64,000 nt of DNA from positions 83,948,001 through 84,012,000 of the forward strand of contig OZ024743.1 of NCBI GenBank assembly GCA_964016885.1, in the 5' to 3' direction. The DNA is from Eledone cirrhosa. Its lineage: Eukaryota. The position numbers and the translations under genes are program-made. Below are positions 23,742 to 50,467 of the stretch, one piece after another; within the stretch, counting starts at the first letter, position 1, and every line of letters begins with the position of its first letter. A model generated the notes under the pieces. That model made no database searches. It saw only the letters and a list, made by a program, of their open reading frames with translations, and was not told where the DNA came from.

Positions 23742-24080
23742 TGGCCTGCCCATTCGACACGAGAGTGCAAGAGAAGGAGAGGGAGAAAATTAACCGATAT
23801 CAGGACTTAAAGTGGGAGGTAAAAAGGATTTGGAACTGCCATGAAGTCAAAGTGATCCCGATTGTCATAGGCGCACTAGGGACTATCTCAAAAAGTTTCC
23901 AGGAATGGTTAAAGAAAATTGGCCCCTTCACGCTTTTTGGAACGCTTCAAAAGGCATGCTTGCTGGGAACAGCAAGAACTCTCCGATACGTCCTGAATAT
24001 CTGAGGCTGCAGGTAGTGGCTTGATATTCCTTTCAACAAACTTTCCAGTTAACTAATATCAATGACTGAGACTCAAAGAG
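23742..24080 (+). mobile_element. R4/Dong-like family A, copy 0: severely 5'-truncated (RLE C-terminus + 3'UTR)
   Basis: ACPFDTRVQEKEREK...RYVLNI* nearly identical to the end of ORF 25148..28540; same ~75-nt 3'UTR; (AAT)n at 24081-24150. Confidence 0.95.
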
Positions 24081-24087
24081 TAATAAC

Positions 24088-24152
<65 letters not shown>

Positions 24153-27100
24153 CTCTTAGTACAAATGCTACGTAAAGCACCCGGCTTGAGCCCCAAAAAA
24201 TTCGGACCCAAAATATATTGTTATAAGGCTCAAATATTCAAATATTCAACTTTGTATTGTACACTGTATATCCAAAAAAAAAAATGGCTATAAATGGAAG
24301 AAGAAGAAGAACCCCCCCCCCCCTCCTCTCCTCTGGCTACACTATATAGGACAGCTAAACTCACCAACACCAGAAACTAGATACACCACCCACCCCATCA
24401 TCTGTGTACACTAAACACAACAGCATTTTCACCTTCACCGCCACCGCTCACTACGGCCATCATTACCACCACTATCCCATCACCGCCGCCACCACCCCTT
24501 GACTCCTTCACTGCTGCTGCCACCGCTACAGCACCATCACTACAGTAATACGGTCGCATCACCGCCACCACTGCCTCGGTATCGACATCACCACCACCAC
24601 TGTCTCAGTATCGCCAACGCCGCCCTCTCCCACTTCTCCCTGCTGGCTGCTACTACTACTTCCACATTATAGAATCCCTACTACTAACAAAGAGGAAGGC
24701 ATCAAAATATATAGATAGACTCAAAAGAAAAAAGAAAAAACAAACAACAAAACCAAAGCAGCGCAGCAACAACAGCAAAAAACGAGAAAAACAAACAGAG
24801 AAAAACAAAAACAAAAAAAGAAACCCCAAAAACGTAAAGAAAATAAGAATGAAGAGGGAAGCAGGCGGACGGACAGAGAAGAGGGGGGAAAAAGTAAAAC
24901 TTAAAAAACAAAAACTAAGTCAGACATTCGAATACTACATTACAATGAAACTTATGCTTATCCATTTTTGGGGCCCTTTCTGCCCGTGTGTTTGTTTGTT
25001 TATGTGTGTTCGTATACAGCGTGGTGATAATGCCACACAAGGGCCAAGTGGGATGGCGGATCCACAGGTGGCTATGTAAACATACATTCGCCAATCCTCG
25101 ATAAGAGTGTTTAAATATCGAACATAAACAGTTCGAATAACGGTGAAATGGAGACTAGAACGTCATGTGACAGACTCTCACCCAACAGGTGCCCCCTGGC
25201 TCAGCAGCAGGAACCTGACTGTCAACCAAATACTGCTGATGTTGGAGGAAGAAGAAGAAGGAAAGGGGCCAGAACCAACTGGACGAAAGAATTGAATAGA
25301 ACTGTTATGCAATGCTACCTGAAAAGTAACCCCAAGGAGAGGGGCTACAGGAGACGGATGCATAACATCTGGAACGAGATTGGTTTATTTAAATTAGATG
25401 AACAAAAATTGGCCGGGCAGGCTCGGGTAATAAGAACTAATGGGTGGATAAGCGAGCTGGAACTGGAGGAACTGAGCAGAGAGAATGGCTTGGAGATGGC
25501 GGGTGTAGTATGCCAGACAAGCGAGCCGGTGGGAAATGAAGGTGAGGAGGTCCTGAGAACGGAGGAACCACCCGAAGCAGACAATGATCTGAATACTGAG
25601 ATAAATAATACCTGGAACAGAGATACGGCCACTGAGGAGATGAATGCTGACGGGCTAGGACAAGATTCGGTTGACATCCTAAATCTAGTGGTAGATGAAT
25701 TGAACAATGATAGTGGGAGACCTATGAACCTAAGATTTGTAGACAGGAAAAAGTTAAAAGAAACAACAGCTAAGGTAAACAAAGTCATCCCATACCTTGA
25801 GGCGAGGAGTCTTCACCAGTGCAACAATATCCTCAAAGCAACAGCAAATACGGTGAGGAAACTACTTGGTATAAAAGCGAGAGGAAACAACAGACAAGAA
25901 AGAGCAGAGCCGTGGTGGAAGAAGCGACTGAGTGGGCAAATCGGGGAAATGAGAAATGACATAGGAAAGCTTGAGTCACTACTGAATGGGACACTAAAAA
26001 ACATAGGCACTAAAAATAGACTGGAAATAAAATACAAAACTAGGAGTAAAAAGCTAAATATTATCATAGAGGAATTGAAGCAACGCATTGTAGCAAAGAG
26101 TGCCAAAATCAGGCGATACGAGAACAGAGTCAGTCAGTATAAACAGAACCGCATGTTCGACAACAACCAGAAGATGCTGTTTGGACAGCTTGAGGGGAAA
26201 GAAAGAGGCAACGACTTGATCCCTGGGGCGGAACAAGCTAAAACCTTCTGGAGAGGAATATGGGAGCAGGATGTTAGACACAATGCCCAGGCAGGGTGGA
26301 TTGAGACAGTACAGAGGGAGATCGGTGAGAAGGCACAACAACAGACTGATTTGAGTATCACAGTTGAAACTCTTAAGGGGCAAGCCAAAAAACTAACCAA
26401 TTGGAAATCACCAGGCCCAGATGGTGTGCAGGGGTATTGGATTAAACATTTAACATCCCTCCACCCGAAGCTGACGGCCATGTTCAATGACTGCTTGGTG
26501 TCGGGTGAGGTGCCAGAGTGGTTGACAAAAGGTACCACAGTTCTGATAATGAAAGACCGAATCAAGGGTAATGATGTTACCAACTATAGACCTATCACAT
26601 GTCTGCCCGTAATGTGGAAACTGTTGACGAGCATTGTGTCTGAGGAAATCTACCATCACCTCCACACAAACAACTTGTTACCGGACGAACAGAAAGGATG
26701 CCGAAAGAAGTCACGTGGTACAAAGGACCAGTTGCTTATTGATAAGATGGTAATGGGGAATTGCAGGAGGAGACACACTGATCTTGCCATGGGATGGATA
26801 GACTACAGAAAGGCATTTGACATGGTGCCTCATTCCTGGATCACCAAAAGCCTGGAGGTCTTCAGGGTGGCAGATAACATCAGACAGTTGCTGGGCAGGA
26901 GTATGGGGTCCTGGGAGACAGAGTTGACATCAACTGGAGTATCCTTGGGAAGCGTGAAGATCAAGAGAGGTATCTTCCAGGGAGATAGCCTGTCCCCTCT
27001 GTTGTTTGTCCTTGCCCTGATGCCCTTGACCATTATGCTGCGAAAAGTGAGAGCAGGATACAAGTTGGGAAGGGGAGAGCTTACCATCAATCACCTCCTC

Positions 27101-28614
27101 TTCATGGACGATCTTAAGCTCTTCGGGAAAAGTGAGAAGGAGTTGGATGTGCTTGTTGACACTGTCCGTATTTTCAGCAGTGATATATGTATGCAGTTTG
27201 GTATTGGTAAATGTGGAGTCATTGTGATGAAGAGGGGTAGGTTGAGCAGAAGTAACGGGATCCAGATACCAACAGGTGAGATGATAAAGGAAATTGACTC
27301 TGAGGAAGGATACAAGTATTTGGGCGTTCTGGAGGCTGATGGCATAAAGAACAAAAGAATGAAGGAATTGTTAAGAACTGAATACATTCGGAGAGTAAGG
27401 AGCGTATTGAAGTCACATCTGAACAGCAGAAATGCCATAAGCGCAGTAAATTCCCGAGCTGTGTCTATTATTAGGTACAGTGCGGGAATTCTGAGATGGA
27501 ATGTTGCTGAACAAAAAGAAATGGATAGGAAGACTAGGAAGCTATTGACTATCTACAACATGTTCCACAAGAGGAGTGATGTCGATAGACTCTACCTAAG
27601 GAGATCTGAGGGTGGAAGAGGTCTTATCAGCATAGAGGACTGTGTTCAGATGGAGAAAAACAACCTATACAAATACGTGACCTATAGTAAGGAGCCAATG
27701 CTCAGAACTGTACTGAAGGAGGGGACAGTAGGCCAGGGGATGTCCAAGGAGGAAATAACATCAAGGAGGAAGAGCAGCCTTAAGGGAAAATCCCTTCATA
27801 GTACCTTCTTTGAGAAAACTGAATTTAGAGATCCACAGACATGGAACTGGTTGAGAAGAGGAGACCTCAAAAAGGCTACAGAAGGAATGCTAATGGCTGC
27901 GCAGGAGCAGGCCCTCAAAACGAAGTGGTTGAAGCACCATATCTACAAGGAGGAGGCTAGCCCACTGTGCAGGATCTGTGGAGAGAGAGAGGAGACTGTG
28001 GCTCACATTGTGTCCGAGTGTAAACACCTAGCCCAGACCCACTATAAGGGCTGGAGACACGATGTGATGGGCAGGGTGATCCACTGGCACCTGTGCAAAG
28101 TAAACAATCTACCACATTCTGAGAAATGGTATGAGCATAGGCCAGAGGCGGTGATGGAGAACAGTCAGGTGAAGGTGCTGTGGGATTTTAGGATACAGAC
28201 GGACAAAAAACTGGAACACAATAGACCTGACCTGGTGGTTGTGGACAAAGAAAAAAGATCGTGCCTGATTGTGGATGTGGCCTGCCCGTTCGACACGAGA
28301 GTGCAAGAGAAGGAGAGGGAGAAAATTAACCGATACCAGGACCTAAAGTGGGAGGTGAAAAGGATTTGGAACTGCCATGAAGTCAAAGTGATCCCGATTG
28401 TCATAGGCGCACTGGGGACTATCTCCAAAGGTTTCCAGGGATGGTTAAAGAAAATCGGCCCCTTCACGCTTTTTGGAACGCTTCAAAAGGCATGCTTGCT
28501 TGGAACAGCAAGAACCCTCCGATACGTCCTGAATATCTGAGGCTGCAGGTAGTGGCTTGATATTCAATCCAACGGACTTTCCAGTTAACCAACATCAATG
28601 ACTGAGATTCAAGG
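24153..28614 (+). mobile_element. R4/Dong-like family A, copy 1: apparently complete RLE-type non-LTR retrotransposon
   Basis: ~1-kb leader, single intact ORF, short 3'UTR; (AAT)n on both sides (24081-24150, 28615-28668). Confidence 0.93.
25148..28540 (+). CDS. R4/Dong-like retrotransposon protein, 1130 aa: N-terminal Myb-like domain, reverse transcriptase, CCHC knuckle, restriction-like endonuclease
   Basis: RTNWTKELN...W...LAGQARVI (Myb-like); [42 protein letters not shown]; CRICGEREETVAHIVSEC; RHD; RPDLVV...DVACP...KEREK; no internal stops. Confidence 0.95.
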   Translation: METRTSCDRLSPNRCPLAQQQEPDCQPNTADVGGRRRRKGARTNWTKELNRTVMQCYLKSNPKERGYRRRMHNIWNEIGLFKLDEQKLAGQARVIRTNGWISELELEELSRENGLEMAGVVCQTSEPVGNEGEEVLRTEEPPEADNDLNTEINNTWNRDTATEEMNADGLGQDSVDILNLVVDELNNDSGRPMNLRFVDRKKLKETTAKVNKVIPYLEARSLHQCNNILKATANTVRKLLGIKARGNNRQERAEPWWKKRLSGQIGEMRNDIGKLESLLNGTLKNIGTKNRLEIKYKTRSKKLNIIIEELKQRIVAKSAKIRRYENRVSQYKQNRMFDNNQKMLFGQLEGKERGNDLIPGAEQAKTFWRGIWEQDVRHNAQAGWIETVQREIGEKAQQQTDLSITVETLKGQAKKLTNWKSPGPDGVQGYWIKHLTSLHPKLTAMFNDCLVSGEVPEWLTKGTTVLIMKDRIKGNDVTNYRPITCLPVMWKLLTSIVSEEIYHHLHTNNLLPDEQKGCRKKSRGTKDQLLIDKMVMGNCRRRHTDLAMGWIDYRKAFDMVPHSWITKSLEVFRVADNIRQLLGRSMGSWETELTSTGVSLGSVKIKRGIFQGDSLSPLLFVLALMPLTIMLRKVRAGYKLGRGELTINHLLFMDDLKLFGKSEKELDVLVDTVRIFSSDICMQFGIGKCGVIVMKRGRLSRSNGIQIPTGEMIKEIDSEEGYKYLGVLEADGIKNKRMKELLRTEYIRRVRSVLKSHLNSRNAISAVNSRAVSIIRYSAGILRWNVAEQKEMDRKTRKLLTIYNMFHKRSDVDRLYLRRSEGGRGLISIEDCVQMEKNNLYKYVTYSKEPMLRTVLKEGTVGQGMSKEEITSRRKSSLKGKSLHSTFFEKTEFRDPQTWNWLRRGDLKKATEGMLMAAQEQALKTKWLKHHIYKEEASPLCRICGEREETVAHIVSECKHLAQTHYKGWRHDVMGRVIHWHLCKVNNLPHSEKWYEHRPEAVMENSQVKVLWDFRIQTDKKLEHNRPDLVVVDKEKRSCLIVDVACPFDTRVQEKEREKINRYQDLKWEVKRIWNCHEVKVIPIVIGALGTISKGFQGWLKKIGPFTLFGTLQKACLLGTARTLRYVLNI

Positions 28615-28626
28615 AATAACAATAAC

Positions 28627-28667
<41 letters not shown>

Positions 28668-28668
<1 letters not shown>

Positions 28669-31600
28669 CCAACTTCAACACCATCACTACAGTAATACGA
28701 CCACATCACCACCACCACTGCCTCATTATCGCTACCGCCGCTATTCTCTCCCACTACCTCCTGTTAGTTCCTGCTAGCACAGCACCGCCACCACCACCAC
28801 CACCACCACCACCACCACTGCCTCATTATCACTACTGCCGCTATTCTCTCCCGCTGCCCCCTGCTACATTGTAGAATTCCCACTAAAAGAGGAAGGCATC
28901 AAAATATATAAATAGACTGAATTGATGACCCGGTCAAAATAAAAAAAAACAAAAGTAAAAATCATGTTTTAGTTTTAACAAAATGTTTAATTCCAATATT
29001 ATGGGTAAATGTCAACACATATACACGACTAACGATAATTTCACTAAAGATAATTTCACCACCAACACCACCACCACTACCACGATGAAAACTCTGGTCA
29101 AGTCGACTCAAATTTCTACTCCAACTTCAACACCATCACTACAGTAATACGACCACATCACTACCACCACTGCCTCATTATCGCTACCGCCGCTATTCTC
29201 TCCCACTAGTTGCTGCTAGCACAGCACCGCCACCACCACCACCACCACTGCCTCATTATCACTACCGCCGCTATTCTCTCCCGCTAGCCCCTGCTACATT
29301 GTAGAATTCTCACTAAAAGAGGAAAGCATCAAAATATATAAATAGACTGTATTGATGACCCGGTCAAATCAAAAAAACAAAAATCAAAATCAAAGCAGCA
29401 CAGCAACAACGAAAAACGTAAAGAAAATAAGAATGAAGAGAAAAACAAACAGACGGACAGAGAAGGGAAGGGAAAAACTAAGTCAGACATTCAAACACTA
29501 CATTACAATGAAACTTATGCTTATTCATTTTGGGGGTTTTTTCTGCCTGTTTGTTTGTTTATTTGTGTTCGTCTACAGCGTGATAATGCCACACAAAAGT
29601 CACGTGGAGTGACGAAACCACCGGAGACGATGAATTCACCGGTGGTTATGTAACCATACATTCGCCAATCCTCGATAAGAGTGTTTAAATGTCGAACCTA
29701 AACAGTTCGAATAATGGTGAAATGGAGACTAGAATGTCATGTGACAGACTCTCACCCAACAGGTGCTCCCTGGCTCAGCAGCAGGGACCTGGCTGTCAAC
29801 CAAATACTGCTGGTGTCGGAGGAAGAAGAAAAAGGAAAGGGACCAGAACCAACTGGACGAAAGAATTGAATAGAACTGTTATGCAATGTTACCTGAAGAG
29901 TAACACCAAGGAGAAAGGCTATAGGAAACGGATGCATAACATCTGGAACGAGATTGGTCTATTTAAATTAGATGAACAAAAATTGGCCGGGCAGGCTCGG
30001 GTAATAAGAACTAATGGGTGGATAAGCGAGCTGGAACTGGAGGAACTGAGTAGAGAGATTAGCTTGGAGATGGAGAGTGGAGTATGCCAGGCAAACGAGC
30101 CAATGGGAAATGAAGGTGAAGAGGTCGAGAGAACGGAGGAACCATCCAAAGCAGACAATGATCTGAATGCTGAGATAAATAGTAGCTGGAACAGAGATAC
30201 GGTCATTGAGGAGATGAATGCTGACGGGCTAGGACAAGATTTGGTTGATATCCTAAACTTAGTGGTAGATGAATTGAACAATGATAGTGGGAGACCTATG
30301 AACCTAAGATTTGTAGACAGGAAAAAGTTAAAAGAAACAACAGCTAAGGTAAACAAAGCCATCCCATACCTTGAGGCGAGGAGCCTTCACCAGTGCAACA
30401 ATATCCTCAAAGCAACAGCAAATACGGTGAGGAAACTACTTGGTATAAAAGCGAGAGGAAACAACAGACAAGAAAGATCAGAACCTTGGTGGAAGAAACG
30501 ACTGAATGGTCAAATCAAGGAAATGAGAAATGACATTGGAAAGCTTGAGTTCCTACTGAATGGGACACTAAAAAACATAGACACTAAAAATAGACTGGAA
30601 ATAAAGTACAAAACTAGGAGGAAAAAGCTAAATATTATCATAGAGGAACTGAAGCAACGCATTGTAGCAAAGAGTGCAAAAATCAGGCGATACGAGAACA
30701 GAGTCAGTCAGTATAGACAGAACCGCATGTTCGACAACAACCAGAAGATGTTGTTTGGACAGCTTGAAGGGAAAGAAAGAGGAGACGACTTGATCCCTGA
30801 GGCGGAACAAACTAAAACATTCTGGAGAGGGTTATGGGAGCAGGATGTTAAACATAATGACCAGGCAGTGTGGATTGAGACAGTACAGAAGGAGATCAGT
30901 GAACAGGCACACCAATAAACTGATTTGAGTATCACAGTTGAAACTCTTAAGGGGCAGGCCAAAAAACTAACCAACTGGAAATCACCAGGCCCAGATAGTG
31001 TGCAGGGGTATTGGATTAAAAATAAAGCATCCCTCCACCCGAAACTGACAACCATGTTCAATGACTGCTTGATGTCAGGTGAGGTACCAGAGTGGATGAC
31101 AAAAGGTACCACAGTTCTGATAATGAAAGACCGAATCAAGGGTAATGATGTTACCAACTATAGACCTATCACATGTCTGTCCGTAATGTGGAAACTGTTG
31201 ACAAGCATTGTCTGAGGAAATCTACCATCACCTCCACACAAACAACTTGTTATCGGACGAACAGAAAGGATGCCGAAAGAAGTCCCGTGGTACAAAGGAC
31301 CAGTTACTTATTGATAAGATGGTAATGAGGAATTGCAAGAGGAGACACACTGGTCTTGCCATGGGATGGATAGACTACAAAAAGGCATTTGACATGGTGC
31401 CCCATTCTTGGATCACCAAAGGCCTGGAGATCTTCAAGGTGGCAGATAACATCAGACAGTTGTTGGGCAAAAGTATGAAGTCCTGGGAAACAGAGTTAAC
31501 ATCAACTGGAGAATCCTTGGGAGGCGTGAAGATCAAGAGAGGTATCTTCCAGGGAGATAGTCTGTCCCCTCTGTTGTTTGTCCTTGTCCTGATGCCCTGA

Positions 31601-33185
31601 CCAGTGTACTGCGAAAAGTGAGAGCAGGATACAGGTTGGGAAAGGGAGGGCTTACCATCAATCACCTCCTCTTCATGGACGATCTTAAGCTCTTCGGGAA
31701 GAGTGAGAAGGAGTTGGATGTGCTTGTTGACACTGTCCGTATTTTCAGCAATGATATATGTATGCAATTTGGTATTAGTAAGTGTGGAGTCATTGTGATG
31801 AGGAGGGGTAAGTTGGGCAGAATTAACGGAATCCAGATACCAACAGGTGAGATGATAAAGAAAATTGACTCTGAGGAAGGATACAAGTATTTGGGTGTTC
31901 TGGAGGCTGATGACATCAAGAACAAAAAAATGAAGGAATTGATAAGATCTGAATACCTTCGGAGAGTAAGGAGCGTATTAAAGTCACATCTGAACAGTAG
32001 GAATGCCATAAGTGCAGTAAATTTCCGAGCTGTGTCTATTATTAGGTACAGTGCGGGAATTCTGAGATGGAATATTGCTGAACAAAAAGAAATGGATAGG
32101 AAGACTAGGAAGCTATTGACTATCTACAACATGTTCCACAAGAGGAGTGATGTCGATAGACTCTACTTAAGGAGATCTGAGGGTGGAAGAGGTCTTATCA
32201 GCATAGAGGACTGTGTTCAGATGGAGAAAAACAACCTACACAAATACGTGACTGATAGTAAGGAGCCAATGCTCAGAATTGTACAGAAGGAGGGGACAAT
32301 AGGCCAGGGTATTCCAAGGAGGAAATAACATCAAGGAGAAAGAGCAGCCTTCAGGAAAAATCCCTTCATAGTACCTTCTTTGAGAGAACTGAATTTAGAG
32401 ATCCACAGACATGGAACTGGTTGAAAAGAGGAGACCTTAAAAAGGCTACAGAAGGAATGTTAATGGCTGCGCAAGAGCAGGCCCTCAAAACGAAGTGGCT
32501 GAAACACCACATTTACAAGGAGGAGGCTAGCCCACTGTGCAGGATCTGTGGAGAGAGAGAGGAGACTGTGGCTCACATTGTATCCGAGTGTAAACACCTA
32601 GCCCACACTCACTATAAGGGCTGGAGACATGATGTGATGGGCAGGGTGATCCACTGGCACCTATGCAAAGTAAACAATTTACCACATTCTGAGAAGTGGT
32701 ATGAGTATAAGCCACAGGCGGTGATAGAAAACGATCAGGTGAAGGTGCTGTGGGATTTGGGGATACAAACTGACAAGAAACTGGAACACAATAGACCTGA
32801 CCTGGTGGTTTGGGACAAAGAAAAAATATCGTGCCTGATTTTGGATGTGGCCTGCCCATTCGACACGAGAGTGCAAGAGAAGGAGAGGGAGAAAATTAAC
32901 CGATACCAGGACTTAAAGTGGGAGGTAAAAAGGATTTGGAACTGCCATGAAGTCAAAGTGATCCCGATTGTCATAGGCGCACTAGGGACTATCTCAAAAA
33001 GTTTCCAGGGATGGTTAAAGAAAATTGGCCCCTTCACGCTTTTTGGAACGCTTCAAAAGGCATGTTTGCTGGGAACAGCAAGAACCCTCCGATACGTCCT
33101 GAATATCTGAGGCTGCAGGTAGTGGCTAGATATTCATTCCAACGGATTTCCAGTTAACTAACATCAATGACTGAGACTCAAAGAG
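28668..33185 (+). mobile_element. R4/Dong-like family A, copy 2 (disrupted ORF, duplicated leader module)
   Basis: ORF fragments 29689..30918, 30925..31215, 31208..31600, 31618..32328 and 32421..33110 are colinear with copy 1; (AAT)n at both ends. Confidence 0.95.
29689..33110 (+). pseudogene. Disrupted R4/Dong RT-RLE ORF (copy 2)
   Basis: Premature stop at 30918 and frameshifts near 31210, 31600 and 32320. Confidence 0.93.
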
Positions 33186-33213
33186 TAATAACAATAATAA
33201 TAATAATAATAAT

Positions 33214-33275
33214 TGTTTCTGCATTAGGCACAAGGCCAGCAATTACACAGTGCATTACTGGTACTAATAATTATT
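33214..33275 (-). mobile_element. Possible short SINE 3'-end fragment at an (AAT)n tract
   Basis: TTTCTGCATTAGGCACAAGGCCAGCAATT...ACTGGTACT is unrelated to the leaders of copies 1 and 2 and resembles my recollection of a common cephalopod SINE end; unverified. Confidence 0.3.
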
Positions 33276-33289
33276 CTATCACAGTTGTT

Positions 33290-36943: not shown

Positions 36944-37219
36944 ACAATAATAATAATAATAATAATAATAATAAAGTTTTCTTTATTAACCACAAGGGTT
37001 TACATAAAGTAGACATTAAGGACAGTACAGGACAATACAGGACGGTACAAATGGGCATTTCTGCGTGTAAAAAAAACAGAGGTTGAAATAAAATAACAAA
37101 GAAAAATTCCCCAATAGGGGGGAGACTTCCGAGGGACATTTGTGGAGAAAGCCCATTAAAAGACCACAGTGGCCCTGACCACCAGGGCAAGTGCCCTCTC
37201 CCAGTTTTCCACCTTTAAT

Positions 37220-40200: not shown

Positions 40201-40639
40201 CTAAGATCCCGTTCCAGTCGCCCACTAACACTAAAGAGCGGGACGTTCCAAGAAAGGTCTCCAGACGCCGGAAGAAATCAGGCCGCCCTGCTCCTGTCGG
40301 GGCATAGACGGCCACTAACCTGAAAGCTTGCCCGTCACCGCTGGTCACGTCCAGCACCACCAACTTACCTTCTGGGTCCAGGAAGATGGCCCGTATGGCA
40401 AGATCCAAACCTCTCCGAAAAAGCACAGCAACTCCTCCCCCCGATCCCGGACGGCTGGGAGATGCGTACACATCGTAGCCGCCGAAGATCGGTGCGAAAG
40501 CCTGTGCTTCGGAGATTCTGGTCTCGCTGATGGCCACTACATCTATGTTTAGTGACCTGAGGTCATTGAGCAGGTGGCCCTGCTTCCATGACGACCCCAA
40601 GCCACGCGCATTTATGCTGCCTATTCTGAGTGAGGTCAT
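37220..40639 (-). CDS. Tx1-like ORF2, 1139 aa: APE endonuclease, reverse transcriptase, CCHC knuckle; intact
   Basis: SINARG, SET, VYAP, GDWN, YLDRV, TDH, GPGYWKLN; KSPGLDG, NFRPITLLN, LDQSKAFD, QGCPLS, YADD; CPRCAQGDETVLHALVQC. Confidence 0.95.
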   Translation of the reverse strand: MTSLRIGSINARGLGSSWKQGHLLNDLRSLNIDVVAISETRISEAQAFAPIFGGYDVYASPSRPGSGGGVAVLFRRGLDLAIRAIFLDPEGKLVVLDVTSGDGQAFRLVAVYAPTGAGRPDFFRRLETFLGTSRSLVLVGDWNGILDARWDCVGLVDREGGCKSLTNLLRRFELSDRYRMDFPNVPMWTWTNRIGSSRSYLDRVFCREINRSSIGCPQFKIVSYTDHKFVICVLDLDRLHRRGPGYWKLNASLPARKAYRDRISELVKRALTGAIVNNKWWFALKRAIRIESIRFSKTLAIEKNRSEGKLVRKLDEALSKGIATDVLAAKLALDQFFNAKHEGCVVRARVRALRHEGTKAVQWARVAEARRGNKATIRSLVDHDGRMLLDPGQMCEAFQRHFAQLFGGSGGPDRGMDFSVYLDGLPRLSATEAKCCEKPITTAEVRDAMTSCTRGKSPGLDGLPYELYVQMPNLFGGLLADVYCNWQQNGRIPSSVSRGAVALLRKDPNKGDNIDNFRPITLLNTEFKILAKVLAKRLALVVGGLVGEAQTCAIPDRSIHDNLHLMRYIVERVAREPGTGGSLINLDQSKAFDRVDHRYLAAVLRAAGFGPVFRGWIAAMHSDICSVVRVNGHLSEPFNIMRSVRQGCPLSSLLYVLTLEPLLHKLETLRGVPRELGCGRSVSAYADDVIVVVSNAKHIEAIGTTLREYEAVTGAMINQEKSVGLQLGTWRGRSMPSNSVVGRWTDGPIKLLGVWFGPDLQTDKNWDEVTSRVASLTQKWAERKLSLKGRAEVANAYIASVIYYCLTVVPCPKPRLTALERLLFRFLWKGRAPMFRRSICCQHPLRGGLGMPWLMMRRHALRLRHLHLFLDGDQVWSPFARHVFPQLVSLTELQSWVKRRPRGSAWRLECLQALTALDQSGNVIGGNSTLAFYRGLVEGKSDDVLGETLGVDENQLANLFGRTFGPGPMDNFQKSLAWQCYRGALPVRDKLYRHGGAVSRACPRCAQGDETVLHALVQCPSIADLWVYVEHLLSRVGRIQLSAESIVRIAPPPSFSREGQAVFICLVAMAKEIVWWTRLKGLKTSTYLFGDALINFFKFHLKRKIRVEREVLSSQHFVERWVREASMARMNGPSLSMCL

Positions 40640-40673
40640 GTTGAAAAGGAGTGGAAAAGATGGGAAAGACCAC

Positions 40674-42661
40674 TTACCTTACTTCTTGTAGGGGAAGGAC
40701 GGTTTTTCCATCCTTTTCACAGCTTGTGGCCTCCTCAGGAAGGATGTCCTTATAAATCCTCCTGGAGAGTGCTTGTCGGAAGTCTCCGATGTCTTTGGGG
40801 AATTTTTGTTTTAGTGTCATGTACGTTTTCTGTGTGATGCGAGTGATTTGTAAGTGTGGAGGTGGTGTGAATTTTGGGGTTGTTGTGTAGTCTTTTTCTG
40901 TGATGCTGGTGTTGTGTTGGATGTAGTGTAATAATTGCTTGTTGTTCAAATTTAATGCTGTGTAGTGTGTATCGTTTTGGTTGTTTTGTTTTGTTTGCGT
41001 TTGTTGTGGGTTTGTTTCTGTTTCGCATTTTGGTGACTTTTGTGGTGTAGGTGATGGTGGTGCTGGGGTTAATGATGGTGATGGTGTTGGTGTTTGGGTT
41101 GATGGGGTTGGTGATGCTGGTGTGGATGGTGGCATATCTGTCCTAACTTTTTTGTTTCTTAATTTATTTGTTTCCCTCTGTATTTTGTTTTTGGAGGAGG
41201 AAGGAAGAGAATTTTTTCTTTTTTGGTTTCTTTTTTTTTTCCGGATATCGTTTCCCACTCCTCGTCGTCACAATCTGTCTCCAGTTGTGATAGGCCGGGG
41301 AGTGGAAAATCCTCCACAGCCGTTAGTTTTGGTTGTGGTGTGGTGGATGGTGTAGGCGCTGGTGCTAGTTCTGAAGCGTTGGGTGGTGGTGGTGTTGGTT
41401 TTGCTGGTGGTGGTAGTGGTGTTGGTTTTGCTACTGTTGCTGGGGTTGTTGCTGTTATAGTTGCTTCTGTTGTTGCTGCTACAGTTGTTGCTGCCATCTC
41501 TGCTACTGGTGGTGTTGATCGTTGTGTCACTGGGGTGGGTAGGAGAGGTGGCCTCAACCTTTTAGCCTGAGGGCAGAAAGCCCTTAGGTGGTTTCCTTCA
41601 CCACAAACGACACACCTAGGTCTTCTGCCCTCGACAATTACCGTGAGGTGGCTGCCGTCAGTGAGGTCTATTACCTCTGGGATCTCCTCAATGCTCTTTT
41701 GGTCCGCTTGGATCAGGAGCTCCATCCCAGATCCGGACCAGTTTTCCTGCTTTTCTTTTGCTATTGCTATTATTTTCGTGTTGGCTTCGATGCCGGCGAG
41801 GACGGCCGCTATTAGCCAGGGAATTTCGATGGCCGGTGGAACGTGGGTCACCCTGATCTTTACGAGTCTCTGGCCACAATAGCTTGGGACGAGTGTGAAG
41901 TCGTCACTTTTTAATGGGGCCATGGAGTGTTCTCTAGCCTCCTCTGGTGTTTCAAAGAACACGTCCACGGTTCCATACTTTTGCCCACGTCTGATGTGGG
42001 TTTTTCTTGCCCACACATGTCCCAAAGCTTTTTGGATTTGGGACTCGGATGCCCGTTCCACTCGGCGCGATTTTACATTTATTGTTCTATACGACACGGT
42101 GCATAGGCGCCGATGCTCCATTTTATTAGGTGGGGGGGTGAGGCTGACCCTGTACCCATCTTTCTTTACCATTTGTTTGGCATTTTCTAAATCTTCCTGT
42201 GTTACCGTAAATGCTTCGAATTGTTTTGCTACTCTGGCGAAACTGAGGGGGGGGGGGGTTATAATGTCATTGTTGTTGTTGTTGCTATCGTTAATATTAA
42301 TTTTAGTTTCAGTTGTGGTGGTGGTGACGTCAGTCGTCTTTGGTGGGGAAGAGTCCATTTTGCTTGATTTCATTTCGACATCACGAGTTAATTTATTTTT
42401 TTCTTCTTTTGTTCTGTTGTCGCGGTGGTGGTGGTGGTGGTGGTTGTCGCGGTGGTGGTGGTGGTGGAGGCTTTAACACCTGCAGTCATTGGTAATGGCG
42501 GGAAATGAATGTCTGCCTGAGACAAATTTAAAATATTGCTACTGCTTATATTTTTTTTTTGTGTTGGCAAACGTAGTAACATTTACAATGGTGGTGTCGG
42601 TGTGAGGTGTTATTTTGTGAGGAAGGCTTTCAGCTGCTTCGTGCAGAGGTGAAGTAGCCAT
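40674..42661 (-). CDS. Tx1-like ORF1 (RNA-binding, CX2CX4HX4C knuckle, P/T-rich), broken only at A-homopolymers
   Basis: Segments 42388..42582, 41159..42373 (CVVCGEGNHLRAFC) and 40674..41258; likely start AAAAAAAATGGCT at 42661; frame changes coincide with T-runs near 42555, 42398 and 41235. Confidence 0.75.
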
Positions 42662-42894
42662 TTTTTTTTCAAAGAAATTTTTTGATAATAACAGAAGTTA
42701 AAATTTTGGGTACAAGGCCCCAATCTTTTTGGGTGTCCTTTTCGGAAAACAATGTATGTGTGCTTATAAACAGTTAACAATAACATTTTCCATAAATGGC
42801 AATTTTTAACAAACGGAAATAACAAACCTTTGCGGAGCTCACGATGATACGATTTACTACGTAGGTCGCCAATAATAATAATAATATTAATAAT

Positions 42895-42953
<59 letters not shown>

Positions 42954-43206
42954 TTTCTTTATTAACCACAAGGGTTTACATAAAGTAGACATTAAGGACA
43001 GTGCAGGACAATACAGTACGGTACAAATGGGCATTTCTGCGTGTAAAAAAACAAAAAAAAACAGAGGGTGTAACAAAAAATAACAATGAAAAATTCCCCA
43101 ATAGGGGGGAGACTTCGGAGGGACATTTGTGGAGAAAGCCCAATAAAAAGCCACAATGACCCTGACCACCAAGGCAAGTGCCCTCTCCCAGTTTTCCACC
43201 TTTAAT

Positions 43207-46200
43207 TTACAGATATATACTCAGAGTAGGCCCATTCACTCGGGCCATTCTTGCTTCTCTCACCCATCTTTCAACAAAATGCTGGGAAGAGAGCACTTCC
43301 CTCTCTACTCTCATTTTCCTTTTCAAATGAAATTTGAAAAAGTCAATCAGAGCATCACCGAAGAGGTAAATGCTCGTCTTCAGCCCTTTCAAACGTGTCC
43401 ACTATACTATCTCTTTCGCCATGGCCACCAGACAGATAAAAACTGCCTGCCCTTCCCGGCTAAAGGAGGAGGGCGGGGCAATCCTCACGATGGACTCAGA
43501 TGATAGCCGGATCCGTCCTAAACGCGACAGCAGGTGTTCGACATAAACCCGCAAGTCAGTAATTTTTGGACACTGGACGAGTGCGTGCAGGACGGTTTCG
43601 TCGCCCTGCGCGCATCTCGGACATGCCCGGCTGACGGCACCTCCATGCCTGTAGAGTTTATCCCGAACTGGCAAGGCTCCTCGGTAGCACTGCCAGGCCA
43701 GAGATTTCTGGAAGTTGTCCATAGGCCCTGGCCCGAAAGTTCTTCCGAAGAGATTGGCTAGTTGATTTTCGTCGACGCCTAGAGTTTCCCCAAGTACGTC
43801 GTCGCTCTTCCCCTCCACTAATCCTCTATAGAACGCCGAGGTGGAGTTTCCACCGATCACATTGCCCGATTGGTCGAGGGCTGTGAGCGCCTGAAGACAT
43901 TCCAGTCTCCAGGCGCTCCCTCTCGGTCTTCGCTTGACCCAGGACTGCAGCTCCGTCAAGGAAACGAGCTGGGGAAATACGTGTCTAGCAAACGGCGACC
44001 ACACCTGATCACCGTCGAGGAAGAGGTGGAGATGTCGTATCCTGAGCGCGTGCCTGCGCATCATCAGCTACGGCATGCCCAGCCCTCCACGTAGCGGGTG
44101 TTGACAACAGATGGACCGCCTGACCATCGGAGCGCGTCCCTTCCACAAAAAGAGAAAGAGCAAACGCTCCAGCGCAGTCAGGCGGAGCTTAGGACAAGGT
44201 ACGACGGTCAGGCAGTAGTAGATGACGGATGCGATGTACGCATTCGCCACCTCCGCTCGACCTTTCAGGGATAGCTTCCTCTCCGCCCATTTCTGGGTGA
44301 GAGAAGCCACCCTGCACGTCACCTCGTTCCAGTTTTTGTCCGTCTGGAGGTCCGGACCGAACCAGACCCCTAGCAATTTAACCGGTCCGTCCGTCCAGCG
44401 TCCGACGACGCTGTTGGACGGCATGGACCTGCCTCTCCAGGTGCCGAGCTGCAGGCCCACTGACTTTTCCTGGTTGATCATTGCTCCTGTCACCGCTTCG
44501 TATTCTCTTAATGTAGTGCCGATCGCCTCGATGTGTTTGGCTTTCGACACCACTACGATGACATTGTCCGCATATGCTGACACGGATCTTCCGCATCCTA
44601 GTTCGCGCGGGACTCCCCTCAACGTCTCCAGTTTGTGCAGTAATGGCTCGAGAGTCAATACGTACAAGAGGGACGAGAGGGGACATCCTTGGCGGACCGA
44701 GCGCATGATGTTGAACGGTTCCGACAGGTGACCGTTCACTCTCACCACAGAGCAGATGTCGCTGTGTATGGCAGCGATCCAGCCTCTGAAGACGGGCCCA
44801 AAGCCAGCCGCCCTCAGGACTGCCGCTAGGTAACGATGGTCGACCCTATCGAAAGCTTTCGACTTATCTAAATTGATCAAGGACCCACCCGTGCCAGGTT
44901 CCTTAGCTACCCTCTCTATGATGTATCGCATGAGGTGGAGGTTGTCGTGGATGGATCTGTCGGGAATGGCGCATGTCTGCGCCTCTCCCACCAGACTACC
45001 AACGACAAGCGCCAACCTCTTTGCTAGCACCTTGGCCAAAATCTTGAACTCTGTGTTTAGCAGAGTTATGGGCCGGAAATTATCTATGTTATCTCCCTTG
45101 TTCGGATCCTTTCTCAGCAGTGCCACCGCTCCTCGGCTCACAGAACTGGGAATTCTCCCGTTCTGTTGCCAGTTGCAGTAGACGTCCGCCAAGAGGCCTC
45201 CGAACAAGTCTGGCATCTGTACGTAAAGTTCATAGGGCAGACCATCCAAACCAGGCGATTTACCCCTTGTGCAGCCAGTCATTGCCTCCCTTACTTCAGC
45301 GGCTGTTATCGGCTTTTCGCAACACTTCGCCTCAGTGGCCGAGAGCCGCGGCAGTCCGTCGAGGTAGACACTAAAGTCCATCCCTCTACCCGGCCCACCG
45401 CTGCCGCCGAACAGCTGAGCGAAGTGTCGCTGAAAAGCTTCACACATTTGCCCGGGATCGAGTAGCATGCGCTCGTCGTGGTCCACCAAAGACCGGATCC
45501 TGGCTTTGTTGCCACGACGCCGCTCCGCCACTCGGGCCCATTGAACGGCTTCGTCCCCTCGTGTCTGAGAGCACGCACCCTTGCTCTGACAACGCAGCCT
45601 TCTTGCTTTGCATTGAAGAATTGGTCAAGGGCCAATTTCGCCGCAAGCACGTCGGTCGCAATGCCTTTGCTAAGCGCCTCGTCTAATTTTCTAACTAGTT
45701 CTCCCTCTGCTCTATTTTTCTCTATTGCTAAAGCCTTACTAAACCTAATCGATTCTATTCTAATCGCTCTTTTCAGAGCAAACCACCACTTGTTGTTGAC
45801 GATGGCCTCCGTCAACGCCCGCTTAACTAGTTCGCTAATCCGGTCTCTGTAGGCCTTGCGCGCTGGTAAGGACGCGTTTAGCTTCCAGTAGCCGGGTCCT
45901 CGTCTATGAAGCCTATCTAAGTCAAGCACACAGATCACGAATTTGTGGTCCGTGTAGCTGACTATCTTGAATGAATTGTGGACAGCCTATGCTAGACCTA
46001 TTTATTTCCCTACAAAATACTCTATCTAGATATGATCTGGATGACCCTATGCGATTTGTCCAAGTCCACATTGGTACATTCGGGAAATCCATTCGGTACC
46101 TGTCAGACAGTTCAAAACGTCTGAGCAGGTTGGTGAGACTCTTGCACCCTCCTTCCCTATCCACTAATCCCACACAATCCCAGCGTGCATCTAAGATCCC

Positions 46201-46629
46201 GTTCCAGTCGCCCACTAACACTAAAGAGCGGGACGTTCCAAGAAAGGTCTCCAGACGCCGGAAGAAATCAGGCCGCCCTGCTCCTGTCGGGGCATAGACG
46301 GCCACTAGCCTGAAAGCTTGCTCGTCTCCGCTGGTCACGTCCAGCACCACCAGCTTACCCTCTGGGTCCAGGAAGATGGCCCGTATGGCGAGATCCAAAC
46401 CTCTCCGAAAAAGCACAGCAACTCCTCCCCCCGATCCAGGACGGCTGGGAGATGCGTACACATCGTAGCCGCCGAAGATCGGTGCGAAGGCCCGTGCTTC
46501 GGAGATTCTGGTCTCGCTGAAGGCCACTACATCTATGTTTAGTGACCTGAGGTCGTTGAGCAGGTGACCCTGCTTCCATGACGACCCCAAGCCACGCGCA
46601 TTTATGCTGCCTATTCTGAGTGAGGTCAT
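43207..46629 (-). pseudogene. Disrupted Tx1-like ORF2 (copy 2)
   Basis: 4-bp TGAA duplication near 45970, frameshift near 45550, TGG-to-TAG stops at 44068 and 43402; catalytic YADD mutated to YADN. Confidence 0.93.
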
Positions 46630-46664
46630 GTTTAAAATAGAGTGGAAAAGATGGGAAAGACCAC

Positions 46665-48765
46665 TTACCGTACTTTTGGTAGAGGAGGGATGGTTTTTAC
46701 ATCCCTTTTCACTTGATCGTCTGGTGAAGGGACCGTTGAATCGTCCCTTCGGCTGGTTGTCGGCTCTTCTAAGAGAATGTCTGAATATACTCTTCGATTG
46801 ATAGTTCCTCCTAGATCCCTGAAATCACCAACTGCGTTGGGGAATTTCGTTTTAATGTTTGTGTATTGTTTCTGTGCTATTTTTAGCAGTCTTATGTTAG
46901 TTGGCGTTTTGATTGGTGCTGGTATTATGTAGTCGTGTTGTGAAATGTCTGTGTGTTCAATTATGTAATTCATTAGTTTCTTGTTGTGTGTATTTATTGC
47001 CGTGCATTTGTTTTTCTGGGGGTGGGGTGTGGTTCTGCTATTTTCTTGTCGTTGTTGCTGGGTGTGTGTGTTTTGTTGTTGTGTTTGCGATGTTGGTGCT
47101 TGTGGTGGTGGTGTTGAAGGTGTTGTTGGCGGTGGGGTTGTCGCCGGTGGTGATGGTGGTGCTAGTGTGGGTGGTGATGGTGTTGGTGGTGTTGCTGCTG
47201 TGGGTCTCTTTGCAGTAGACTTTACCCTTTTCTCATTTCTTTCCTCCCTTTTCAAAGGCGACGATGCGCTGCTTCTGCGTTTGTGCCTTCTTACGACCTT
47301 TTGCCATCCCTCTCCCACCTCACACTCCATGTCTGATTCTGTGAGGTCGGGGAAGGGTACCAGCTCCACTCTTTCACTTGTTGTTGTTGGTGATGTTTGC
47401 ACTGGAGTCTCTGTTGCAGCTGCATTTGGTATTGCTGTTGTTGTTGTTAATATTTCCACTGCTGCTGCTGTTTTTGATTTCCGTGGCGTGGGTATGGGTG
47501 CCACGGACCTATCGTTCCTGGTTGCCGCTTGTCCTGTTGCTGGTAGCCGTGGAGCCGGTTTCGGAAGGAGGGGGGGTTCTCCTTTCTCAGGGTCTTCTCG
47601 TTGCAGAAGGCCCTGAGGTGAGTCTTCGATCCACAGCGAAAGCATTTCGGGCGTTTTCCCTCAACACTTATGGGCAGTTGAGTGCCGTTATCGAAGTCTA
47701 TCACATACGGGATAGCTTCGATGCACTCCTGGTTGGTTTGGATTAGCATCTCAATGGAGGTGCCGACCCAATCTTCTCTTACTTTGTTCTGTACTTGCAG
47801 TACAGTTGTTTTGTCCTCGATTCCGACGAGGACAGACGCGGCCAGCCAAGAAGGGGCCATTCCGGGGGGGACGTGGGTCAGTTTGACCCTCACAATTTTT
47901 GCCCGCAGTAGGAGGGCACCAACACCATTTCCTCGCTCCTTAGGGTCACTACGGATTGGGCCTTTGCCTCCTGGGGTGTGGCAAAAAGTACGTCTACGGT
48001 GGCATATTTTTTGCCTCGGGTGATGTGCGTTTTCCGCTGCCACACAGACCCCAAGGCTTTTTGTATTTGAGCCTCTGTGGCTCTTTCCACCCTACGGGAT
48101 TTTGTACTTACTGTACGGTACGTGACCGTACAGTGCTGTTGGGTTTCGAAAAATTTTTCCGCTGCCTTGCAGATTGCTCGGTGTCCGTTCTTTGTCACCA
48201 TCTTCTTCGCTTCCTCTAATTCCTCATTTGTTATGAGGATTGTTTCCAAGTTTTTCGCAATACCTGCAAATGAGATTGGTTTTTCTTTGCTGCTGTTGTT
48301 GTTGTTGTCGTCAGAGCTGCTGTTACTTTTGTTGTTGCTGCAGGTACTACGACTACTGCCTCCGCCGCTGTTGCTGTGGTTGTTGTTGGTGTTGCTGCTG
48401 CTAATGCTGTTGTTGTTTATGCTGCTGGTGATGCTGTTGCGGCTGCTACTGTTGTTTTCATTGTCACTGTTGCTGTTGTTATTACGGCTGCTACTGCTAT
48501 TATTCCTGACGTCAGACGAATGAACTGGGTTTTCGTATTTCCCGCACACCTGTTTCGTCGCTGTCGTCGTCGTCGTGGAGAAACCTTGCACGCTTTGCAC
48601 GAGACTTTTCTTTTCTTTCGTCACTTGCGAAAGAGAAGGGAGGGAGAGAGACACATTTAAAGAAGGGAGGGAGAGAGACAATCTTCTCTCTGCTGTAGTG
48701 ACGATTGAGGAAGAAGAAGACGGAATGAGTGGGAGTGACCTATGCAAATTCTTTTTCGTAGCCAT
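46665..48765 (-). pseudogene. Tx1-like ORF1 of a different type (copy 2), frameshifted at homopolymers
   Basis: Segments 47890..48765, 47447..48043 (CFRCGSKTHLRAFC) and 46665..47645; homologous to but strongly diverged from copy 1 ORF1. Confidence 0.82.
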
Positions 48766-48983
48766 GTTGTTTTTTTTTTGTTTAAAATAAATATTGGGTA
48801 CAAAACCCCAATAAGCAGTTATTTAACCCCGAAGGGCCAAATAACGGTCAGAAAGACCCCTCTCACGAGGAGGAGGGTGTTTTTGTCTACAAGTTGGTCC
48901 AAGTTTTAAACAATTTACAATTGTTATAGCGTTCAAAATTTACAGTACCTTACAGAGCCGAGCCTCCGTCAACCATAGCATTC

Positions 48984-49050
<67 letters not shown>

Positions 49051-49052
<2 letters not shown>

Positions 49053-50226
49053 TGGATTATCTACATATTGGATTATCTACATATCTACAATTGGATTATC
49101 TACATATCTAAGGGAATCACATGATTGGATGATCAAACTCGTTTTGAAACACGAAAGCATCAAAAGATCATATTCCATTACAAAAGATGCACAAAGATAC
49201 AGTAATGGACTACAAATTTCAGAAGTCCCATTTACTGCTGAAATGGAAAACACAGAAAAAGCAAAGCAGGTAAAAGTAACTGCAAAGAAAGAACTGCTAC
49301 AGAAACTGGCTAAGAAATGGCAAGAAAAGCCTCTGTATGGAAAATACCCAGAGCGAGCTAACAATCCTGATGTTGACAAAACTTTAACCCATCAGTGGTT
49401 GGCATCCTCTGGACTGAAATCGGAGACTGAAGGACTGATTATATCGGCACAAGATCAGTGTCTGCCAACAAAAAATTACCAAGCCAACATAATAAAAAAT
49501 GGGTACAGCCCATTATGCCGAGTATGCAAAAAACAACCAGAGACCATTGACCATATAATTTCAATGTGCAGTCCTATAGCTCCAACCGAATACCTAAACA
49601 GGCATGACAGAGCTGCACAATACATACATTGGATAATGTGTAAGCATTTTGACCTGCCCCATCAAAAGAATTGGTGGGAGCATCAACCACCTCCCATACT
49701 TGAAAAAGATCACATCTCAATCTTGTGGAACTTTAGCATCCAAACAGACCGAAAAATAGATGCAAACAGACCTGATATAATATTGAAAGACTTTCAAAAG
49801 ATGGTATGCCTGCTAATTGATATGTCTGTTCCAATAGACAAGAATGTATCTATAAAAACATTTGAAAAATTGAGCAAGTATAAGGACCTGGAGATAGAAA
49901 TTGGAAAAATGTGGAAATTGAGAACTAAAACAATACCAGTGGTTGTAGGCGCTCTGGGAATGATACCTAAGGGGTCTAATGATTACTTATCGCAAATCCC
50001 AGGAAACCCGCGTATAGGAGAAATACAAAAGATAGTACTAATGGGAACTGCCCATATACTAAGGAAGATTCTGTCAATATAAGTACATCACAAGTCTAAA
50101 CACTAAAGATGCATGTGTGAATATGTATGTTCTTTCTTGAACATGGCGGACCTTGTTGTCTCTTGAGGTCACTGGTTGTGACTTGGTGATAACTCGTATG
50201 AACATAAAGCAAGATAAATGCAACTG
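49051..50226 (+). mobile_element. R4/Dong-like family B, 5'-truncated fragment (knuckle + RLE + 3'UTR)
   Basis: ORF 49129..50082: AQDQCL, CRVCKKQPETIDHIISMC, RHD, RPDII...DMSVP...KLSKY, GALG; (AAT)n on both sides. Confidence 0.92.
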
Positions 50227-50467
50227 TAATAATAATAATAATAAATAAATAAAAAATAAAAATAAATAAATATATATATATATATACACACACATACATA
50301 TATATATATACACATATATATACACACACACATATACATTAATAACAATAATAATAATAATAATAACAACAACAATAATAATAACGACAACAACAACAAT
50401 AATAATATACATATACATATATACACACACACGCACACAAATAAACATATCTATATACACACACACG

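What the first reader, a model, noticed from the sequence alone, without database searches (positions are those of the whole stretch)
23742..50243. 26.5-kb (AAT)n-anchored nest colonised from opposite strands by two unrelated retrotransposon classes
Seen: seven non-LTR elements lie back to back, and every junction is an (AAT)n tract (24081, 28615, 33186, 36946, 42871, 48984, 50227). All five RLE-type R4/Dong elements read on the AAT strand and both APE-type Tx1 elements read on the TTA strand. The tract at 36946-36974 is shared tail-to-tail. The tract at 48984-49052 lies between two 5' ends, so it cannot be a tail of either neighbour and points to a pre-existing target. Known: Bombyx Dong targets TAA repeats, some Tx1 families target microsatellites, and TRAS/SART occupy opposite strands of telomeric repeats. 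Inference: this is a self-amplifying safe haven in which each insertion leaves a new (AAT)n that recruits the next. The leftmost copy has no 5' (AAT)n and may have seeded the array.
Basis: partly seen in the sequence, partly recalled or inferred. Interest (0 to 1): 0.85.

Follow-up and report, generated by a model that had tools for sequence, protein, structure and literature searches.

The report
Retrotransposon nests on AAT microsatellites
Two unrelated kinds of jumping gene sit in AAT repeats facing opposite ways, here and at many other places in this animal genome; each insertion likely leaves fresh repeat for the next, so the 26-kb nest is real but common and built from parts with known precedents.

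Summary
The nest is real but not special. Five R4/Dong-like (RLE) copies read on the AAT strand and two Tx1-like (APE) copies on the ATT strand. The rule holds beyond the window. 60 of 60 sampled full-length Tx1 5' ends abut (AAT)n; for one subfamily 1,213 of 1,445 genome-wide do, and 0 matched the opposite polarity. 43 of 54 Dong 5' junctions abut (AAT)n, against a 0.045% background. 85 of 89 neighbouring ends share polarity. Arrays as large occur elsewhere.

The seed is likely an AAT run inside an RTE 3' UTR at the right end. E1's left edge looks like a deletion, not a founder. Tandem duplication also builds some arrays. The window holds about 118 AAT units against 1-10 in empty RTE seeds, so target is likely regenerated. 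'Safe haven' was not tested.

Dong on TAA, Tx1 on microsatellites and TRAS/SART opposite polarity are all in print. An ATT-specific Tx1 sharing Dong's target was not found in my searches.

The parts
23076..23741 (.). Penelope-like repeat, cut in its interior at 23741; left border of the nest
   Evidence: 94.7% over 666 bp to L173, which continues past this point into an RT ORF read by eye as Penelope-type; the continuation is absent from the window
23742..24080 (+). E1: 3' stub of R4/Dong-like family A, no 5' AAT
   Evidence: 94-97% to the 3' ends of E2-E4
24081..24149 (+). (AAT)n tract, 23 units
24150..28614 (+). E2: family A, open 1141-aa frame at 25115-28540 (RT, CCHC, PD-D-K RLE); lacks the first 90 nt of the full-length 5' end
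   Evidence: 99.6% to a dispersed copy
28615..28668 (+). (AAT)n tract, 18 units
28669..33185 (+). E3: family A, decayed (four frame pieces, one stop), internal 5' duplication
33186..33213 (+). (AAT)n tract, 9 units
33214..33291 (-).
   Evidence: 48 of 52 distinct copies in fetched loci abut AAT at this end; longer copies show target duplications
33292..36945 (+). E4: family A, 5'-truncated, decayed (four frame pieces, two stops)
36946..36974 (+). (AAT)n tract shared tail-to-tail by E4 and E5
36975..42870 (-). E5: full-length Tx1-like element; ORF2 open, 1152 aa (APE, RT, CCHC) at 37220-40678; ORF1 in two frames with a CCHC knuckle
42871..42951 (+). (AAT)n tract, 27 units, between the E5 5' end and the E6 3' end
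42952..48983 (-). E6: full-length Tx1-like element of a second 5' subfamily; ORF2 broken (four frame pieces, two stops)
48984..49052 (+). (AAT)n tract, 23 units, between two 5' ends
49053..50226 (+). E7: 3' 1.17 kb of R4/Dong-like family B (CCHC + RLE), with a short tandem filler at its 5' junction
   Evidence: 2,613 exact 3'-end matches genome-wide
50227..50244 (+). (AAT)6, the remaining right part of the likely seed tract
50245..53150 (-). RTE-type LINE with C-terminal C2H2 fingers; its microsatellite-rich 3' UTR contains the AAT run that likely seeded the nest; the distal UTR end is missing; the 53150 border is approximate

Best explanation
This is one of many nested arrays in which R4/Dong-like (RLE) elements lie on the AAT strand and Tx1-like (APE) elements on the ATT strand of (AAT)n microsatellites; each class likely nicks its own strand and primes reverse transcription there, and each insertion likely splits and regenerates the repeat so that the next has more targets. 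Shown: target association at 5' junctions, fixed polarity, clustering, mixed copy divergence within the nest, and more AAT in the nest than in empty seeds. Inferred from standard target-primed reverse transcription: RLE nicks the ATT strand first, and APE nicks the AAT strand at T/A. The Tx1 3' junction is in phase (AAT followed by the element end) in 30 of 30 copies. Inferred: this nest was seeded by the AAT run in the RTE 3' UTR at 50227 and later lost its left edge by deletion. Inferred with the source unresolved: new AAT comes from target duplication, the short AAT/AAC end of the Dong RNA, reverse-transcriptase slippage or replication slippage.
For: Tx1 5' ends: 60 of 60 have at least 5 in-phase AAT-like units; 1,213 of 1,445 genome-wide are followed exactly by (AAT)3, and the opposite-polarity pattern found 0. 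Dong family A 5' junctions, mostly truncated so not element-encoded: 43 of 54 within 10 nt of (AAT)3, background 0.045%. Neighbouring 3' ends within 15 kb: 85 of 89 concordant, Dong-Tx1 pairs 36 of 38; random placement gives about 4.4 concordant and 4.4 discordant, maximum 12 concordant in 2,000 runs. The far side of a flanking tract is another Dong or Tx1 in 100 of 150 cases, 98 of 100 in the expected polarity, against 7 of 30 tract sides in 400 kb of evenly spaced samples (hand count). Window copies are 95-99.6% identical to their nearest sampled relatives, consistent with sequential arrival. 355 bp of AAT in eight tracts against 1-10 units in 11 empty RTE seeds; the longest single tract in any fetched locus is 42 units.
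Against: 5'-truncated Tx1 copies are looser: 5 of the 15 junctions printed have at least 3 AAT units on the 5' side (2 of the 15 are internal joins; 2 have GAA runs, 2 only TAAT). So part of the perfect 5' tract of full-length Tx1 could be carried in the RNA. 11 of 54 Dong 5' junctions fail the 10-nt test; five are clear non-AAT joins (L016, L022, L144, L149, L150). One array holds two 812-bp family B pieces that are 100% identical with the same truncation point, i.e. tandem duplication. Elements may simply choose tracts that slippage had already lengthened. Samples come from the first matches on contig C1, overlap in part and are not independent. No empty allele and no spanning read was seen.
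Confidence: 0.8

Rival explanations
1. Targeting without amplification: both classes target (AAT)n, but nests just mark rare, very long pre-existing tracts or permissive regions, and insertions only divide the repeat.
For: Long tracts are a limited resource (31,790 perfect runs of 7 or more units ending in one phase) against at least 15,900 exact element 3' ends. Far-side occupancy (67%) exceeds sampled tract-side occupancy (23%), which a uniform model does not give, so site heterogeneity exists. Tx1 target duplications look short where visible (L056, L057, L214).
Against: The window's 118 units are nearly three times the longest single tract seen (42 units) and more than ten times the RTE seed. 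Tracts inside large arrays are mostly 7-37 units rather than shrunken.
Confidence: 0.13
2. Arrays arise mainly by tandem duplication or unequal exchange between tracts or elements, or by mis-assembly.
For: The array at C1:55.42-55.46 Mb has five Tx1 copies 98.7-99.2% alike and a repeated Tx1 + family B unit whose two B pieces are 100% identical. No read data confirm the window's array.
Against: Window copies differ by 3-9%, have different 5' ends and come from four families; E2 is closer to a dispersed copy (99.6%) than to its neighbours. Two-thirds of 150 sampled tracts show the same kind of adjacency.
Confidence: 0.05
3. The tracts are element-made ends (3' tails and RNA-carried 5' repeats), and the elements have no real target preference.
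For: Dong 3' ends carry a subfamily-specific AAT/AAC start. Full-length Tx1 5' tracts are always in phase.
Against: Randomly truncated Dong copies have 5' AAT (43 of 54). Tx1 copies in non-AAT DNA have no tail. The sister Tx1 family with a similar 3' end abuts AGAT in 30 of 30 and (AAT)3 in 0 of 30.
Confidence: 0.02

Closest known systems
Dong (R4 clade) of Bombyx mori, Anopheles, Biomphalaria and Darwinula
   Same: Single ORF with RT and C-terminal RLE; (TAA)n target, stated to hold in most insects, molluscs and cnidarians (PMC7998251 passages; PMC3812793 passages). Dong-R4 is the LINE group with most recently active insertions in Octopus vulgaris (PMC13282606, parts 1-2 of 3).
   Different: Two families here share the target with Tx1 and build multi-element nests. 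No HDV-like ribozyme was detected at the 5' end, whereas B. mori Dong has one (PMC3774820 passages). No tree against named Dong sequences was possible.
Kibi, Koshi and crocodilian microsatellite-targeting Tx1 families
   Same: Two-ORF APE elements inserted in microsatellites: (TC)n, (TTC)n, (TTCC)n/(TTTC)n (PMC4494074 passages).
   Different: The target here is (ATT)n, with a sister family on (ATCT)n/(AGAT)n. Neither target turned up in my searches; Repbase Reports and Kojima & Fujiwara 2004 were not readable.
TRAS and SART in Bombyx telomeric repeats
   Same: Two families insert into one simple repeat in opposite orientation and form arrays (PMC10088271 passages).
   Different: Both are R1-clade APE elements, and telomerase supplies the repeat at chromosome ends. 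Here the partners use unrelated nucleases, the target is interstitial, and it is likely renewed locally.
R1 and R2 in 28S rDNA (recalled, no call)
   Same: An APE and an RLE element share one repeated target locus.
   Different: They use distinct sites in a gene array in the same orientation and do not multiply their target.

Membership tests
R4/Dong clade | Single ORF with central RT | tested here: met
   1141-aa frame, RVT_1 at 487-738, FMDD at 663
R4/Dong clade | C-terminal CCHC followed by PD-(D/E)xK restriction-like endonuclease; no APE | tested here: met
   CCHC at 952, PD..D..K at 1038; weak alignment to the R2 RLE of 9nl3 (domain i-E 0.057); motif in 105 of 120 homologues; no Exo_endo_phos hit
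R4/Dong clade | No N-terminal zinc finger (unlike R2 and NeSL) | tested here: met
   No C2H2-like pattern in P0001 or in the first 300 aa of 120 homologues (regex only)
R4/Dong clade | Diverged N-terminal Myb/SANT domain | tested here: inconclusive
   Atlas hit to a Rap1-Myb cluster at 0.84, a lead only
R4/Dong clade | (TAA)n target | tested here: met
   43 of 54 5' junctions
R4/Dong clade | 5' HDV-like ribozyme (shown for B. mori Dong) | tested here: inconclusive
   No ribozyme family in an Rfam scan of 7 loci; a hand-made descriptor found only an AT-rich match at about nt 370 in 2 of 6 sequences; a short conserved stem exists
R4/Dong clade | RT phylogeny grouping with named R4/Dong | not testable with these tools
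   No named R4/Dong sequence among the 120 listed homologues
Tx1 clade | Two ORFs; ORF2 = APE + RT + CCHC; ORF1 with zinc knuckle | tested here: met
   best solved relative is L1 ORF2p, E 2e-52
Tx1 clade | Target-sequence preference | tested here: met
Tx1 clade | RT phylogeny within Tx1 rather than L1 | tested here: inconclusive
   The only named homologue of 6 is an automatically named 'Transposon TX1 uncharacterized 149 kDa protein' at 32% identity; no tree built
TRAS/SART-type telomeric system | Telomeric repeat target, both partners R1-clade APE | tested here: not met
   The target is interstitial (AAT)n, at least 84 Mb from the start of contig C4 and spread along C1; one partner is RLE
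TRAS/SART-type telomeric system | Opposite fixed orientation on one repeat (works like) | tested here: met

The most novel reading that the evidence does not exclude
A genome-wide, self-renewing retrotransposon niche. An RTE LINE scatters short AAT seeds in its 3' UTR; RLE and APE lineages that converged on opposite strands of that repeat, plus a SINE, colonise the seeds and manufacture more target with each insertion. This yields hundreds of polarised arrays, a telomerase-free interstitial analogue of TRAS/SART. Sister Tx1 families have split the microsatellite space (ATT versus ATCT), with changes in the APE hairpin loop as the likely switch.
Probability: 0.4. Interest if true: 0.62.

Novelty: new variant of a known kind. 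Interest (0 to 1): 0.43.

Why it matters
If the amplification step holds, it gives a sequence-level cause for LINE hotspots in a large, probably cephalopod, genome. The hotspots in PMC13282606 are described without such a cause in the parts I read. It also supplies two natural comparisons with thousands of copies: an RLE and an APE reading the same repeat from opposite strands, and two Tx1 families about 60% identical in ORF2 with different microsatellite targets. The second pair makes the question of how APE target specificity switches directly testable. Practically, these arrays will confuse (AAT)n marker design, repeat annotation and insertion calling. The window itself is an ordinary example.

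Tried and rejected
1. A DNA search of the own genome with a Dong 3' piece returned nothing because common words are skipped; exact patterns were used instead.
2. Laying public runs on 22900-42899 and on the 23741/23742 junction gave only short repeat pieces. No listed record bridged the junction and no empty allele was seen. This says nothing for or against the assembly.
3. Rfam on 7 loci gave only low-score matches, mostly on simple repeats. The HDV-like descriptor was not convincing.
4. Tx1 target-duplication length could not be read inside pure repeats. Left and right tract lengths of 38 full-length copies are uncorrelated (rho 0.09) and similar (medians 13 and 11); 2 of 40 fetched copies had no 3' end in range and were dropped.
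5. The SINE's target duplications (11-25 nt in 23 of 40 copies; none found in 12) are longer than the few visible for Tx1, so I do not claim Tx1 as its partner, although the 3' ends resemble each other by eye.
6. E1 as seed: rejected (see full report).
7. Segmental duplication for this window: rejected.
8. Earlier findings of this scan: two look-ups, nothing returned.
9. Literature searches found no report of ATT-specific Tx1 or Dong/Tx1 nests. Supplements of PMC4494074, which hold Tx1 flank figures, could not be read and may bear on novelty.
Full report
Setting. The window is G000:C4:83,948,001-84,012,000 in a 3.0-Gb genome. No call named the organism. A cephalopod is likely: that guess was recalled from the look of the repeats; the nearest Atlas cluster is mostly Mollusca; and the RTE with C2H2 fingers and a microsatellite 3' UTR resembles RTE-2_OV as described in PMC9115989 (section 6 read).

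Observation. All seven listed AAT tracts exist. Self-BLAST, Pfam and tblastn give E1-E4 as one RT + CCHC + PD-D-K family on +, E7 as a second such family (39% aa identity), and E5 and E6 as APE + RT + CCHC elements on -. E2's frame and E5's ORF2 are open; E3, E4 and E6 are broken. One junction is not as described: a 51-bp SINE piece, TAATAAT and 20 bp of filler lie between the tract at 33213 and E4.

Is (AAT)n a target? Exact patterns give 7,209 family A 3' ends, 2,613 family B 3' ends and 6,107 Tx1 3' ends; these are lower bounds. I examined the first listed matches on contig C1, which is not a random sample. For family A, 43 of 54 5' junctions lie within 10 nt of (AAT)3 and 46 of 54 within 60 nt; the background is 0.045%. 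Most are truncated at different points, so the upstream repeat is not element-encoded. Of the 11 misses, three are 14-30 nt away, three are alignment stops in a diverged or interrupted 5' UTR, and five are true non-AAT joins. For full-length Tx1, 60 of 60 5' ends abut at least 5 in-phase units. Genome-wide, 1,213 of 1,445 E5-type ends are followed exactly by (AAT)3, and the opposite-polarity pattern gave 0. Tx1 3' ends abut AAT in 30 of 30 and (AAT)3 in 22 of 30; four sit on a lone TAAT in other DNA, so Tx1 need not add a tail. Against a strict reading, only 5 of the 15 printed 5' junctions of shortened Tx1 copies have 3 or more AAT units, so full-length RNA may carry or favour some repeat.

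Polarity and clustering. Among 95 Dong and 100 Tx1 3' ends in the first 62.86 Mb of C1 (5 Dong ends beyond that limit were dropped), 89 neighbouring pairs lie within 15 kb and 85 share the window's polarity. Random placement gives about 4.4 concordant and 4.4 discordant pairs. The far side of a flanking tract is another Dong or Tx1 in 100 of 150 cases, 98 in the expected polarity. The two exceptions sit where AAT and ATT runs face each other (L030/L047 and L117). In 400 kb of evenly spaced samples there were 15 tracts of 5 or more units, and 7 of their 30 sides touched such an element (hand count, most recognised by terminal motif). The Fisher p of 2e-5 overstates, because sides are not independent. 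Three clusters that I chose for their size show arrays of about 24-32 kb with 7-10 elements. A geometric model suggests several hundred arrays of 7 or more elements; that is a model figure, not a count.

History of this nest. The right flank is the 3' UTR of an RTE-type LINE. In 11 of 19 copies found by one pattern, the UTR continues past the AAT position into a conserved distal end; the AAT run there is 1-10 units, median 4. Besides the window, two of the 19 carry a family A insertion in a UTR AAT run (L253, L257), two more end in an AAT run next to other sequence (L260, L262), and L020 shows a Dong inside this very run with the distal end still in place. The window lacks the distal end. The left flank is a Penelope-like repeat cut in its interior, and its continuation is also absent. 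Two half-elements at the two borders are most simply explained by a deletion that removed the nest's left edge; E1's missing 5' tract is then secondary. This is inferred; no run bridged the junction. The copies are 90.7-96.8% alike and 95-99.6% identical to their nearest sampled relatives, which fits separate insertions over time rather than duplication. Elsewhere duplication does occur: one array repeats a Tx1 + family B unit with two identical 812-bp B pieces.

Amplification. The eight tracts hold 355 bp, about 118 units, against 1-10 in empty seeds and 42 for the longest single tract in any fetched locus. Pure division of a seed would shrink tracts, yet most tracts in large arrays have 7-37 units. 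Net gain is therefore likely. Its source is unresolved: Tx1 duplications look short where visible; Dong ends carry a short AAT/AAC start and sometimes long duplications (L144); slippage can act before or after insertion.

Mechanism. By standard target-primed reverse transcription (established knowledge), an element's sense strand is set by which strand is nicked first. Dong on the AAT strand implies a first nick in the ATT strand; Tx1 on the ATT strand implies a nick in the AAT strand at T/A. No biochemistry was done.

A natural control. The Tx1 relative at 17877-21600 (70% DNA, about 60% aa identity) has 1,193 exact 3' ends. It abuts AGAT in 30 of 30 sampled ends, two or more units in 22, and (AAT)3 in none. 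Four full-length copies among 20 fetched also end in AGAT runs at about 5.7 kb. The APE loop reads WTNRIGSSRSYLDR in the AAT family (18 of 32 readable copies exact over the 21-residue stretch) and WTNPSGTSRSYLDR in the one readable fetched AGAT copy. I take this stretch as the hairpin region from recall of L1 EN; that region affects specificity in TRAS1 and R1Bm (PMC1919474 passages).

Comparison with what is known. Dong on (TAA)n, including in molluscs: PMC3812793 and PMC7998251 (passages). Tx1 on TC, TTC and TTCC/TTTC repeats: PMC4494074 (passages; supplements unreadable). TRAS/SART in opposite orientation: PMC10088271 (passages). Recent Dong-R4 and L1-Tx1 activity and TE hotspots in O. vulgaris, with no target analysis in what I read: PMC13282606 (parts 1-2 of 3). 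PMC3774820 and PMC4640811: passages only. Kojima & Fujiwara 2004 and Xiong & Eickbush 1993 were seen only as citations. Searches found no ATT-specific Tx1 and no Dong/Tx1 nests; Repbase was not searchable.

Verdict. Real, rule-governed and common in this genome: a new variant of known site-specific retrotransposon behaviour. Interest 0.43.

Noticed in passing
window 17798-21600: Sister Tx1-like family (70% DNA identity to E5/E6) flanked by (AGAT)n instead of (AAT)n; 1,193 exact 3' ends; its APE loop differs from the AAT family's.
   Followed up: partly
window 53547-56303: A third, decayed R4/Dong-like element (28-32% aa to E2, + strand) just right of the RTE, followed by (ATAC)n and then a sequence like an RTE 3' end at 56316; possibly an analogous tail-to-tail junction on ATAC repeats.
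   Followed up: no
L251-L269: The 11 RTE-C2H2 copies with an intact distal end abut ACAT-type or (AT)n repeats, suggesting a tail or target preference of their own.
   Followed up: no
L001, L005, L015, L077, L098, L338 and others: Several further Tx1-like subfamilies (75-85% to E5) also end in AAT tracts with the same polarity.
   Followed up: partly
window 33214-33264; L139, L162, L168, L301: Abundant ~190-bp SINE-like repeat inserted at TAAT in Tx1 polarity, with 11-25-nt target duplications in many copies; its 3' end resembles the Tx1 3' end by eye; partner LINE unresolved.
   Followed up: partly
G000:C1:55423600-55455700: Five near-identical Tx1 copies with a duplicated Tx1 + family B unit (two 812-bp pieces 100% identical): tandem duplication or assembly artefact.
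   Followed up: partly
L144: Dong insertion with about 75-80 bp of downstream flank repeated at its 5' junction (long target duplication or template jump).
   Followed up: no
L142, L122, L128 (5' ends of full-length family A): A conserved ~55-nt 5' segment with a GGGA/TCCC stem and an inner hairpin; not matched by Rfam; a possible ribozyme or promoter element.
   Followed up: partly
L050, L052, L214, L291: Elements sit at the boundary of compound (AAT)n/(AAG)n tracts.
   Followed up: no
window 1-6696: 21-bp tandem array of about 322 copies with long open Thr-rich frames on +; satellite or mucin-like exon.
   Followed up: no
window 60881-61933: DUF4371 hit, probably a DNA-transposon remnant (label recalled); a further RT fragment at 63423-63947.
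   Followed up: no
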